A DNA stretch of 64,000 nt. Origin: Promethearchaeota archaeon. Lineage in GTDB: Archaea; Asgardarchaeota; Lokiarchaeia; Sigyniarchaeales; SOKP01. The position numbers and the translations under genes were made by a program. The notes below the pieces were generated by a model that saw nothing but the letters and a program-made list of their open reading frames with translations, had not been told where the DNA came from and ran no database searches. This document shows, one piece after another, positions 38,421 to 48,526 of the stretch. The stretch is from the NCBI GenBank assembly GCA_019058245.1, contig JAHPZJ010000020.1, forward strand, positions 32,001 to 96,000, read 5' to 3'. Positions within the stretch are counted from its first letter, which is position 1. The number at the start of each line of letters is the position of its first letter.

Positions 38421-39374
38421 TTAAGAATAATTTAACATTTTATTAATTGGAATTAAGGCTTTTTTTGCTATATCAGAAGGAACCTTGACCTCAAAAGCTT
38501 GGTCATCAAGGTTCTTGAGGATATATTCAATAAGCTCGAGATTATGCTTTTTCATATTATAACAAATCAACTTGTCTTTAACTGAGTAAAAATTCTTGTT
38601 TTGAAAATCTTGAGTTAAGCGTACTCTGAAACCTTCCTCAGTGCCAATAAGAAACTTGTTTTCATCATTAGAACTATTTTTTACCCTATTATACATTTGT
38701 GCAGTTGACCCTACAAAATCTGCTAATTCTCTCACAGCTCTAATACATTCTGGATGAACAAGTAATTTTGTATGAGAGTATTTTTTTTTTGCTATTTCTA
38801 TATCTTCTGGTCTAATTTGTGAGTGCACATAACAATGACCTTCTTCGGGCATTTTTATACATTTTATCCCAGATTTTTGTTCTGTATAGTCAGCTAAATT
38901 TGCATCGGGACCGAATAAAACTGAGGAAACATTAAATTCTTGACTAATTTTTTCGACAATCATAATTGAATTTGATGAAGTGCAACAAATATCAGATTCA
39001 GCTTTTACAGCTGCTGTTGAATTAACATATACAACAACAGGTAGATCTGGATATTTATTTCTAAATTCCCTAACCATTTCAGGTGTGAGATAAGCCGCCA
39101 TAGGACAGCAAGATTCATAATTAGGGATTAAGATATGTTTATCTTGATTTACAATCGATGCAGTTTCAGCCATAAAATCAACCCCTGCGAATACTATATA
39201 ATTATTTGCCTTCTTTTTTGCTGTACGAGATAAACCAAGTGAATCTCCTACATAATCCGCGATTTCTTGAATTTCTATTGGTTGATAATAATGAGCTAGA
39301 ATCGTTACATCATTTTCTTTCTTTAAGCCCAAAATATCTTCTTGTAATTGTATTGTATTCATATTAATAGTCAA
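38421..39374 (-). CDS. nadA: Quinolinate synthase
   Basis: LAHYYQ, GDSLGL, FMAETA, CPMA, YVNS, CCTSSN, CYVH, HPEC, GST, C.NMK. Confidence 0.95.
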   Translation of the reverse strand: MTINMNTIQLQEDILGLKKENDVTILAHYYQPIEIQEIADYVGDSLGLSRTAKKKANNYIVFAGVDFMAETASIVNQDKHILIPNYESCCPMAAYLTPEMVREFRNKYPDLPVVVYVNSTAAVKAESDICCTSSNSIMIVEKISQEFNVSSVLFGPDANLADYTEQKSGIKCIKMPEEGHCYVHSQIRPEDIEIAKKKYSHTKLLVHPECIRAVRELADFVGSTAQMYNRVKNSSNDENKFLIGTEEGFRVRLTQDFQNKNFYSVKDKLICYNMKKHNLELIEYILKNLDDQAFEVKVPSDIAKKALIPINKMLNYS

Positions 39375-39465
39375 AAAAATAATTACATGTAATATGAATA
39401 AAAGTTCAAATTAAAATAAGTTATTTTGTAATAAAAAAAAAAATAGAAAAAAAAAATTAATAAAG

Positions 39466-40332
39466 TTATATATTAAAGATTTCTCTAAATTTGTTCTGAT
39501 CAACAATATTTGCCGCTAAGATATTAGCCATGGCGCTAATACCTGCTTGATGTCCTTGTTTGTTAAAACCAGCACAGAAATCACCACAGACATAAACATT
39601 TTTAAATTTATGGATAACCATAAGCTCAAATGTTAAAAGAAAAACTTTTACATTGGTAATTACTCCAAAAACTCCAATTTTCACTTCTTTATGGGAACTC
39701 CCTGCATTTTTAATAACGGTCTCCAGTACATGTTCGAGATCTGTCTCATCGAAGGAACTAAGACTGTTTGAATTTAATATAACGTTAAATTCATGATGTT
39801 TTTGTATTAATTCATCCAAGGGGGATATAAATTTCGCTCCATAAGTACCTTTAATACAATGAGGTCCAAAAAGATCCATTTCACCCTTTTGTGATTCATC
39901 TGTTTGGTCATGCCAATCCCTTAGATGTATGCATTGATATTCAACTCCGCTCATCTCATTTAAATTGGATTCAGATGCTTTTATCATTAAATCTCGTATA
40001 AATTGGGTTAGTTTATCTCCTTCCCATACTCTTCTAATCTCATCATAATCAACATGAACTCTATGCCTATAATGCTCTAGGATATGATGATAAGATAAAG
40101 CTCCTCCAATCAATTCACTACTGGCATTATTCTTCAACCATGATATAAATTGATCGATATTTGCATCACTTACATTCCTATTCTGATTTAAAAAATACTC
40201 CATCCATCTATTTGATACTTGATCATACCCTAATTTTAGCGTATCTTCTGATGTGGGGTGTATATTTAACGGTTCAATAAAGTCATTCTGAACCGAACAA
40301 GTTATGATAATATTTAATTTTTTATTTTCCAA
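39466..40332 (-). CDS. Isochorismatase/nicotinamidase-fold protein with altered catalytic triad
   Basis: SVQNDF, RDWHD and FGPHCIKGTYGA retained; GVITNVKV replaces GLATDYC; overlaps the upstream WD40 gene by 11 nt. Confidence 0.75.
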   Translation of the reverse strand: MENKKLNIIITCSVQNDFIEPLNIHPTSEDTLKLGYDQVSNRWMEYFLNQNRNVSDANIDQFISWLKNNASSELIGGALSYHHILEHYRHRVHVDYDEIRRVWEGDKLTQFIRDLMIKASESNLNEMSGVEYQCIHLRDWHDQTDESQKGEMDLFGPHCIKGTYGAKFISPLDELIQKHHEFNVILNSNSLSSFDETDLEHVLETVIKNAGSSHKEVKIGVFGVITNVKVFLLTFELMVIHKFKNVYVCGDFCAGFNKQGHQAGISAMANILAANIVDQNKFREIFNI

Positions 40333-47703: not shown

Positions 47704-47836
47704 TTGATTTTTTTTGACTTTTTCTTCTTTAGGATATTAAAATAAATATTATCAAAAATTATTGATTATGTTACTTTTCATTCAGTTTTAAAGGTCTGCG
47801 AAATATTCTAATTAGATAAAAAGATTGGAGATTAAT

Positions 47837-48526
47837 ATGGTAAATTTTTATGGTGTTGAATTAAAGACTGAAAAAAATATTGTTCTAAATAAATATGATG
47901 CACTTTTAGTTATTGATATGCAGAATGATTTTCTCCCTGGGGGATCTATGCCCGTAGAAGGAGGTGATTCAATAATAAAGGATATTAATGATGTAATTGA
48001 AATATTCGTTGATGGTATTGTAGTACACTCTCAAGATTGGCATCCTCCAAATCATCTGTCCTTTGCAAGTAATCATCCGAATAAAAATCCAGGAGATGAA
48101 TTCAATTCTAAAGATGGGGCAATAGGACCAATTTTATGGCCTGATCATTGCGTTGAGAATACATACGGTGCACGGTTTCATAAAAAAGTTAATACAAAAA
48201 TGATTAATAAAATAATCCAAAAAGGCATGAATCCAGAAATAGATAGTTATTCCGCTTTTCTTGAAAATGATAAAAAAACTGAAACGGGTCTAAGGGAATA
48301 TCTTAATTCCTTTAACATAAAGAGAATTTTCATATGTGGTTTGGCATTAGATTATTGTTGTTATAATACTGCTATGGATGGTGTAAACTTTAATTTTGAA
48401 ACTTTCTTTATGATAGATCTAACTAAAGGTATTGATGAACCGCCTGGAAATATAACAAATTCATTGAAAAAAATGAGTACAAACGGAATAAAGTTTGCAA
48501 CAAAAAATAGTCTTAAAATCTGGTAA
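47837..48526 (+). CDS. pncA: Nicotinamidase/pyrazinamidase
   Basis: IDMQNDF, QDWHP, WPDHC, KG..PEIDSYSAF, GLALDYC: full triad and metal ligands; GGAG upstream of ATG 47837. Confidence 0.93.
   Translation: MVNFYGVELKTEKNIVLNKYDALLVIDMQNDFLPGGSMPVEGGDSIIKDINDVIEIFVDGIVVHSQDWHPPNHLSFASNHPNKNPGDEFNSKDGAIGPILWPDHCVENTYGARFHKKVNTKMINKIIQKGMNPEIDSYSAFLENDKKTETGLREYLNSFNIKRIFICGLALDYCCYNTAMDGVNFNFETFFMIDLTKGIDEPPGNITNSLKKMSTNGIKFATKNSLKIW

What the first reader, a model, noticed from the sequence alone, without database searches (positions are those of the whole stretch)
38421..48526. Candidate Asgard immune/signalling locus: paired LRR-TIR receptors embedded in NAD+ supply genes
Seen: a divergent cluster nadA <- altered nicotinamidase <- WD40-TM | LRR-pseudoTIR -> LRR-TIR -> pncA, with overlapping or short junctions (11-nt overlap, 4-nt overlap, gaps of about 90-145 nt). 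Established: TIR domains with the catalytic Glu cleave NAD+ and release nicotinamide (SARM1, plant TNLs, Thoeris ThsB); PncA converts nicotinamide to nicotinate for salvage; NadA starts de novo NAD synthesis; LRR and WD40 are the standard ligand sensors of NLR/TLR/STAND receptors. Inference: a sensor-NADase module that is physically linked to genes that remove its product and rebuild the NAD+ pool, or in which the dead nicotinamidase-like protein and the membrane WD40 act as signal receptor and effector. I do not recognise this arrangement as a named defence system.
Basis: partly seen in the sequence, partly recalled or inferred. Interest (0 to 1): 0.9.

Follow-up and report, generated by a model that had tools for sequence, protein, structure and literature searches.

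The report
Asgard TIR pair with dead nicotinamidase
A sediment archaeon of the group closest to eukaryotes carries two linked receptor-like proteins (one with an intact NAD-cutting domain, one with a disabled copy) next to a membrane scaffold and a disabled nicotinamidase, and relatives keep, rearrange and even fuse these parts, pointing to an undescribed NAD-based signalling or defence unit.

Summary
The six genes and their junctions are real. The host is a Lokiarchaeia-type (Promethearchaeota) Asgard archaeon. LRR_B ends in a true TIR fold with Glu656 and a BB-loop Asp/Gly. LRR_A has a conserved dead TIR (Ile638, BB loop deleted, dN/dS 0.10) and the more variable LRR surface. A model pairs the two through their helical tails. 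The unit is two modules, LRR_A-LRR_B and WD40-2TM plus pseudo-nicotinamidase. Each also occurs alone, yet they are linked: two other contigs join all four genes in one direction, TIRs of at least five clades sit beside the WD40 module, and a natural TIR-pseudo-nicotinamidase fusion exists. pncA is an optional, cassette-specific paralogue (3 of 11 pair-bearing genomes). nadA is mostly a fixed flank: 33 of 47 related genomes have it without the cassette. Best reading: a sensor/executor TIR NADase pair whose nicotinamide is bound by the pseudo-enzyme and cleared by PncA. It is not an NAD-rebuilding operon, and no activity is shown. I found no paper describing it. This scan noted the locus before in other genomes; the fusion, rearranged operon, PncA clade and tail interface are added here.

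The parts
38421..39374 (-). nadA, quinolinate synthase; fixed flank of a variable slot, probably not part of the unit
   Evidence: NF006878/TIGR00550 over cut-off; present in 48/54 genus genomes; 33 of them carry other cargo or none beside it
39466..40332 (-). Pseudo-nicotinamidase (isochorismatase fold). Metal ligands D139/H141/H158 kept; the catalytic Asp, Lys and Cys positions read S13, S188/N189 and K229
   Evidence: Pfam PF00857; alignments; profile alignment to PncA 3s2s; dN/dS 0.105; natural TIR fusion P0061, 46% identical
40322..42841 (-). WD40 propeller + helical subdomain + Ig-like beta-sandwich + two C-terminal TM helices; the pseudo-nicotinamidase gene follows it directly in every close homologue with upstream DNA. 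Real start probably near 42784
   Evidence: Pfam WD40; hydropathy; AF2 model of aa 435-760, pLDDT 91, only generic Ig-like matches, best Z 7.1; adjacency
42920..45304 (+). LRR_A: unknown N-terminal domain of about 295 aa, at least 9 LRRs, pseudo-TIR, helical tail; candidate sensor
   Evidence: the N-terminal domain has no family
44636..45010 (+). Pseudo-TIR: Ile638 (codon 44831-44833) at the catalytic Glu position, 11-aa deletion removing the BB loop; no Glu at this site in any of 13 aligned orthologues
   Evidence: (hhalign probability 99.95 to TIR_B)
45074..45259 (+). LRR_A helical tail (aa 719-780), predicted heterodimer interface
45301..47703 (+). LRR_B: at least 20 LRRs, TIR, helical tail; no signal peptide, TM helix or NTPase domain seen; candidate executor
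47035..47445 (+). TIR domain with invariant Glu656 (codon 47266-47268), FISHA motif and EQDLSG BB loop
47503..47685 (+). LRR_B helical tail (aa 735-795), predicted heterodimer interface
47825..48526 (+). pncA with an intact active site (D31/K133/C178; D71/H73/H108); second, cassette-specific copy; accessory
   Evidence: NF008623 over cut-off; housekeeping copy at G000:C27; starred clade 98/98 with the copy downstream of the pseudo-enzyme in L216

Best explanation
A modular, NAD-linked TIR signalling unit, most likely for immunity or stress. Shown by sequence: the two LRR-TIR paralogues are always encoded together, A before B, and only B has a complete TIR active site. Predicted: they are held together by their C-terminal helical tails. 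Inferred: LRR_A is the sensor and restrains B, and ligand binding releases the TIR of B to cleave NAD+ into nicotinamide plus ADPR or a cyclic ADPR. Inferred: the pseudo-nicotinamidase keeps the metal site that binds the pyridine ring in PncA (own knowledge) but cannot hydrolyse. It therefore binds nicotinamide or a related NAD fragment and relays it through the membrane-anchored WD40 scaffold. Where present, the dedicated PncA clears nicotinamide (ending the signal or relieving product inhibition) and feeds ordinary salvage via pncB elsewhere. nadA is a positional neighbour.
For: TIR fold and invariant Glu. The dead TIR is under purifying selection (dN/dS 0.10, against 0.15 for TIR_B and 0.14 for NadA). 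LRR_A concave positions vary more than those of LRR_B (0.60 vs 0.39, p=1.6e-4; convex positions 0.40 vs 0.44, p=0.55; related genomes, so p is optimistic). This matches plant pairs, where the sensor lacks the catalytic Glu or BB-loop Asp (PMC13732033). Complex model of the TIR+tail domains: score 0.78, best control 0.01; runs share at least 64% of contacts; partner pLDDT at least 73; the mark was reached by 58 of 80 solved and 2 of 110 mismatched pairs. A is followed by B at every locus examined, including three other genera. Module link: L146 and L149 carry WD40>pseudo-enzyme>LRR_A>LRR_B in one direction. TIRs of at least 5 separate clades lie within two genes of the WD40 module, while the own genome has only 5 TIR genes among about 2800 ORFs. 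TIR(Glu+)-pseudo-nicotinamidase fusion P0061 is on contigs of three assemblies. Intact pncA lies beside the module in two further arrangements (L216, L223). Nicotinamide inhibits TIR activity in plants (PMC10242710).
Against: Each module also stands alone. The pair has no WD40 module beside it in G047, G106 and G237. The WD40 module has no TIR nearby in G018, G064, G022 and about ten other contexts, including Hel- and Hermodarchaeal contigs (several have short flanks). No biochemical or expression evidence. No PADLOC model matches the TIR proteins or the pseudo-enzyme. Bacterial relatives of the pseudo-enzyme are fused to TCAD9 kinase-like domains and often lie beside cNMP-gated channel and SpoIIE/PAS genes, not TIRs. 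The A and B tails are paralogous and close cousins can pass the complex test; no homodimer control was run. LRR_A concave sites have pN/pS 0.73, which is relaxed constraint and not proven positive selection.
Confidence: 0.5

Rival explanations
1. Two unrelated accessory modules share an integration hotspot between nadA and the gamma-carbonic-anhydrase gene; the TIR pair is real but has nothing to do with the WD40/pseudo-enzyme pair.
For: The slot also holds a 2TM-NUDIX gene, MFS + PLP enzyme, WD40-TIR, beta-helix-TIR or nothing in other genomes. Each module occurs alone.
Against: The link survives rearrangement (L146, L149), recurs with other TIR clades away from this slot (L133, L148/L213/L215, L136/L218, L168) and appears as a fusion (P0061).
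Confidence: 0.2
2. Same parts and linkage, but the output is metabolic or developmental signalling (sensing nicotinamide or NAD status), not defence.
For: Stable vertical synteny and purifying selection in one clade. The commonest alternative occupant of the slot is an ADPR-pyrophosphatase-like NUDIX (27 of 33 genomes). Bacterial relatives lie in signalling operons.
Against: Patchy distribution (pair in 11/54 genus and 9/301 phylum genomes), a variable LRR surface, repeated loss (a 38-aa remnant in G021), and conflict-type neighbours such as TPR-CHAT, DNA methyltransferases and DUF4062.
Confidence: 0.2
3. The 'dead' nicotinamidase is an active enzyme with new chemistry (invariant Lys229, Ser/Cys13, metal) that degrades or modifies the TIR product.
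For: K229, T226, D139, H141 and D142 are invariant in 39 sequences; the Lys persists in most bacterial relatives with a scorable motif; fusion to TIR.
Against: All three canonical catalytic residues are replaced, an intact PncA is added next to it in three arrangements, and bacterial relatives place the domain in front of a kinase-like domain, like a sensor.
Confidence: 0.15
4. One reading: a six-gene system in which nadA and pncA rebuild NAD+ after TIR firing.
For: nadA adjoins the cassette in 14 genus genomes and lies at or near it in three branches of the pseudo-enzyme tree. The pncA here is cassette-specific.
Against: nadA flanks the slot in 33 genomes without the cassette, and the gamma-CA gene is nearly as constant a neighbour. 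nadA is not seen in relocated copies with adequate flanks. A T-rich gap separates it from the pseudo-enzyme gene. nadC, pncB and nadE are elsewhere.
Confidence: 0.1

Closest known systems
Plant paired TIR-NLRs (RRS1/RPS4, CHS3/CSA1)
   Same: Linked sensor/executor pair; the sensor TIR lacks the catalytic Glu or BB-loop residue while the executor keeps both (PMC13732033); best structural match is RPS4 TIR
   Different: No NB-ARC domain; the LRR is N-terminal to the TIR; genes are tandem and overlapping, not head-to-head; the predicted interface is a helical tail, not TIR-TIR; archaeal
Thoeris (ThsB TIR + ThsA effector)
   Same: TIR enzyme next to a candidate receptor of an NAD-derived product and a 2-TM protein (own knowledge); ThsB appears among fold matches (Z 12.1)
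   Different: No SIR2, SLOG or Macro domain found; no PADLOC hit; TIRs carry LRRs; the candidate receptor has an isochorismatase fold
Toll-like receptors / SARM1
   Same: Repeat sensor + C-terminal TIR (TLR); TIR with catalytic Glu (SARM1)
   Different: No signal peptide or TM helix between LRR and TIR; no SAM or ARM domains
Bacterial isochorismatase-like-TCAD9 (PF19974) fusion proteins
   Same: Nearest non-Asgard relatives of the pseudo-enzyme, with the same RDWH / PHC / TxxK pattern
   Different: Fused to a kinase-like domain, with or without a DSP phosphatase; no WD40-2TM or TIR neighbour detected in the 39 more distant, mostly bacterial loci checked with an Asgard-trained TIR model
Phage NAD reconstitution pathways NARP1/NARP2
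   Same: Genes acting on TIR products (10.1101/2024.02.11.579819, abstract)
   Different: Those are viral counter-defence ligase pathways; here there is only a deamidase and no NAD-forming enzyme

Membership tests
TIR domain (LRR_B) | Flavodoxin-like five-stranded TIR fold | tested here: met
   (the ten best VIA-align rows are TIR/SEFIR domains, Z 12.4-13.6); 14/22 family members hit PF13676
Enzymatic TIR (LRR_B) | Catalytic Glu in helix C and BB-loop Asp/Gly | tested here: met
   E656 invariant, G invariant, D nearly invariant
Enzymatic TIR (LRR_B) | NAD+ hydrolysis | not testable with these tools
   needs an assay
Enzymatic TIR (LRR_A) | Catalytic Glu and BB loop | tested here: not met
   Ile638 and 11-aa deletion in all orthologues
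NLR/STAND receptors, paired TIR-NLRs | NB-ARC/NACHT NTPase domain | tested here: not met
   no NTPase hit in LRR_A or LRR_B; LRR_B is fully accounted for by cap, LRRs, TIR and tail; the LRR_A N-terminal domain is unassigned
NLR/STAND receptors, paired TIR-NLRs | Linked sensor (dead TIR) and executor (live TIR) forming a heteromer | tested here: inconclusive
   linkage and motifs met; heteromer only predicted
Toll-like receptor | Signal peptide and TM helix between LRR and TIR | tested here: not met
   no hydrophobic segment
Thoeris | ThsA effector (SIR2-SLOG or TM-Macro) | tested here: not met
   no Pfam or PADLOC hit; the WD40-2TM middle domain is Ig-like
Thoeris | Anti-phage activity via a cADPR isomer | not testable with these tools
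   needs an experiment
Nicotinamidase PncA (47825-48526) | Asp-Lys-Cys triad and Asp/His/His metal site | tested here: met
Nicotinamidase PncA (39466-40332) | Asp-Lys-Cys triad | tested here: not met
   S13, S188/N189, K229
Nicotinamidase PncA (39466-40332) | Asp/His/His metal site | tested here: met
   D139, H141, H158
NAD rebuilding operon / NARP | Enzymes that complete NAD+ synthesis in the locus | tested here: not met
   pncB, nadC, nadE on other contigs

The most novel reading that the evidence does not exclude
An Asgard immune pathway in which an NTPase-free, tail-tethered LRR-TIR sensor/executor heterodimer uses nicotinamide itself (usually treated as the waste product of TIR NADases) as the second messenger. 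The signal is read by a pseudo-nicotinamidase on a membrane WD40 scaffold and switched off by a dedicated PncA.
Probability: 0.2. Interest if true: 0.92.

Novelty: new variant of a known kind. Interest (0 to 1): 0.68.

Why it matters
Live/dead TIR receptor pairs are known to me only from plants, where they need an NB-ARC switch. A conserved LRR-TIR pair without that switch, in the archaeal lineage nearest eukaryotes, would show that this design arose separately or earlier. It is also a small system that can be tested in vitro. The pseudo-nicotinamidase, fused to a TIR in nature and to kinase-like domains in bacteria, defines an uncharacterised family of candidate receptors for NAD breakdown products. 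Database annotations of these proteins list only LRR or isochorismatase, so the TIRs are currently missed.

Tried and rejected
Pfam on the isolated TIRs and a TIR_B profile against PDB sequences gave nothing; the fold was settled by family members and structure. PADLOC gave only a WD40 hit to HEAT-ARM_XIII. The LRR_A N-terminal domain had no Pfam or Atlas hit. The WD40-2TM middle domain had no family (weak prok_STING hit in 2/36 members, E 0.006, not accepted) and only generic Ig-like matches (RhoGDI Z 7.1; Atlas TM at most 0.35). No RNA holder listed. The sigma-70 scan equalled shuffles and is not suited to archaea. Repeats were only the 69-nt LRR periodicity, with no mobile-element ends. Paper searches for Asgard/Loki + TIR + LRR, isochorismatase + TIR + WD40, TIR + nicotinamidase and TCAD9 found no description; the library lacks most subscription papers. 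My early reading that pncA is a chance insertion was rejected after the tree. A binomial estimate of TIR enrichment (p below 1e-6) overstates, because the contexts are related and may cluster in islands; it is not relied on. A search for longer fusions returned only a TCAD9 form.

Full report
Observation. The six ORFs, strands and junctions are as described. Homologues are annotated as Promethearchaeota/Lokiarchaeota, so the Asgard assignment holds. The window is G000:C20:32001-96000 of a 3.09-Mb, 76% complete genome. Contigs of four public runs from two studies cover the stretch.

The LRR-TIR pair. LRR_B has at least 20 LRR motifs, then a domain that Pfam misses here but finds in 14 of 22 relatives. 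Its model has a five-stranded parallel core plus a four-helix tail and matches TIR domains best (Z 13.6 to RPS4). Glu656 is invariant. The LRR_A domain is homologous over its length but has Ile at that position and an 11-residue deletion over the BB loop in all orthologues. It is not decaying: dN/dS is 0.10, lower than the rest of the protein. A precedes B at every locus examined: 11 of 54 genus genomes plus G047, G106 and G237 in other genera; 9 of 301 sampled phylum genomes carry A. The concave LRR positions of A vary more than those of B, while convex positions do not differ, which points to A as the sensor. Plant pairs show the same split: the sensor lacks the catalytic Glu or BB-loop Asp (PMC13732033). 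A complex model of the two TIR+tail parts scored 0.78 against a best control of 0.01. Runs shared at least 64% of contacts and partner pLDDT was at least 73; the mark was reached by 58 of 80 solved and 2 of 110 mismatched pairs (only roughly applicable, as my own alignments were used). All confident contacts are tail-to-tail. The tails are paralogous and no homodimer control was run, so this supports but does not show a heterodimer.

The WD40-2TM / pseudo-nicotinamidase module. The hydrolase-like protein keeps the PncA metal ligands but replaces the Asp-Lys-Cys triad, with an invariant Lys at the nucleophile position. It is as conserved as an enzyme (dN/dS 0.105). A WD40-2TM gene directly precedes it in nearly every close homologue with upstream DNA (a few short contigs are unresolved), including Hel- and Hermodarchaeal contigs. 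The WD40 protein's middle part folds confidently into a helical subdomain and an Ig-like sandwich, with no enzyme match, so it reads as a membrane scaffold. The nearest bacterial relatives of the pseudo-enzyme are fused to TCAD9 kinase-like domains, some also to phosphatases.

Are the modules linked? Both occur alone. Three independent kinds of evidence link them. (i) Rearrangement: L146 and L149 (54-71% identity) carry WD40, pseudo-enzyme, LRR_A and LRR_B in one direction. (ii) Replacement: other TIR proteins sit within two genes of the module at other loci: three LRR-TIRs (L133), an 820-aa LRR-TIR (L148, L213, L215), a TIR-TPR (L136, L218) and a 518-aa LRR-TIR (L168). These fall in separate TIR clades, some among free paralogues, and the own genome has only 5 TIR genes. 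(iii) Fusion: P0061 joins a Glu-bearing TIR to a 46% identical pseudo-nicotinamidase, on contigs of three assemblies. Roughly twelve contexts lack a nearby TIR, so the link is frequent, not obligate.

pncA and nadA. pncA follows LRR_B in G000, G070 and G024 only. In seven other pair-bearing genomes LRR_B abuts the gamma-CA gene, and one contig ends. All three have a second, housekeeping pncA. The locus copies form a starred clade (98/98) with a pncA that lies directly after the pseudo-enzyme in L216, apart from the housekeeping copies. A more distant pncA precedes the WD40 gene in L223. So pncA is a dedicated but optional part. nadA is present in 48 of 54 genus genomes. Next to it, 14 have the WD40 module and 33 have something else, most often a 2TM-NUDIX gene (27), sometimes unrelated TIR proteins, or nothing. 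Relocated modules with adequate flanks show no nadA; L146, L149 and L133 are too short to judge. The rest of the NAD pathway is scattered. nadA is best read as an inherited neighbour, though the slot as a whole has an NAD flavour that I cannot explain.

Mechanism. Shown: architecture, motifs, conservation, linkage, fusion. Predicted: TIR fold, tail-mediated pairing. Inferred: A senses, B cleaves NAD+, the pseudo-enzyme binds nicotinamide or a related fragment on the membrane scaffold, and PncA clears nicotinamide, which is known to inhibit TIR activity in plants (PMC10242710). Confidence is about 0.75 that A and B form a sensor/executor pair and about 0.5 for the full coupled model. Defence versus other signalling is open.

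Comparison and verdict. It works like a plant paired TIR receptor coupled to a Thoeris-like product reader, but fails membership of NLR, TLR, Thoeris and NARP. No description was found in the searchable literature. Earlier scan notes on other genomes reached the same outline; I tested those claims independently. Verdict: real, undescribed, a new variant of TIR/NAD signalling; first reading partly supported; interest 0.68.

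Noticed in passing
L103:1184-2857 (G009) and 26 other genus genomes; L075:6815-8527: The usual occupant of the slot next to nadA is a 557/575-aa protein with an unknown N-terminal part, two TM helices and a NUDIX domain with an RDPRG motif (ADPR-pyrophosphatase-like by my recollection). 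It is absent from the slot wherever the cassette is present, and directly precedes the WD40 module in G049.
   Followed up: partly
L102:3498-7172 and 9957-14231; L096:5822-9484; L092:5955-6989: Unrelated TIR proteins occupy the same slot: WD40-TIR (about 1220 aa), beta-helix-TIR (1424 aa, with a hydrophobic N-terminus) and a 344-aa TIR, each near the 575-aa NUDIX. The slot looks like a TIR hotspot.
   Followed up: partly
P0061; L237-L239:56-1372: Natural TIR-pseudo-nicotinamidase fusion followed by a DUF4062 gene; host unknown, contigs about 2 kb.
   Followed up: partly
L224:8534-12229, L192:7924-11631, L229:7198-12247: Bacterial pseudo-isochorismatase-TCAD9 proteins lie behind a cNMP-gated ion channel and SpoIIE/PAS genes, or behind a TCAD9-NUDIX protein; I found no description of this signalling operon.
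   Followed up: partly
window 35547-37157: 536-aa LRR protein with a hydrophobic N-terminus, member of an expanded Loki family with several paralogues in this genome; often near nadA.
   Followed up: no
window 42920-43800: The Gln-rich helical N-terminal domain of LRR_A has two internally similar stretches and no known family; found only in A-type proteins.
   Followed up: partly
G000 C30:142205-143878, C23:84677-86578, C13:72968-73717: Three further TIR genes in the genome, two of them free LRR-TIRs with the catalytic Glu; a broad Asgard LRR-TIR family reaches 1300-1400 aa.
   Followed up: partly
L081:3573-3683 (G021): A 38-aa remnant of the pseudo-nicotinamidase 3' end between gamma-CA and nadA marks a deletion of the cassette.
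   Followed up: yes
L240:4374-7127; L241:1983-6847: In Helarchaeal and Hermodarchaeal-type contigs the WD40 module neighbours a TPR-CHAT protease gene or DNA-methyltransferase/DUF1156 genes.
   Followed up: no
window 49194-50958: A ThiF-family, roadblock and Lsm gene cluster forms the constant right flank of the slot across the genus.
   Followed up: no
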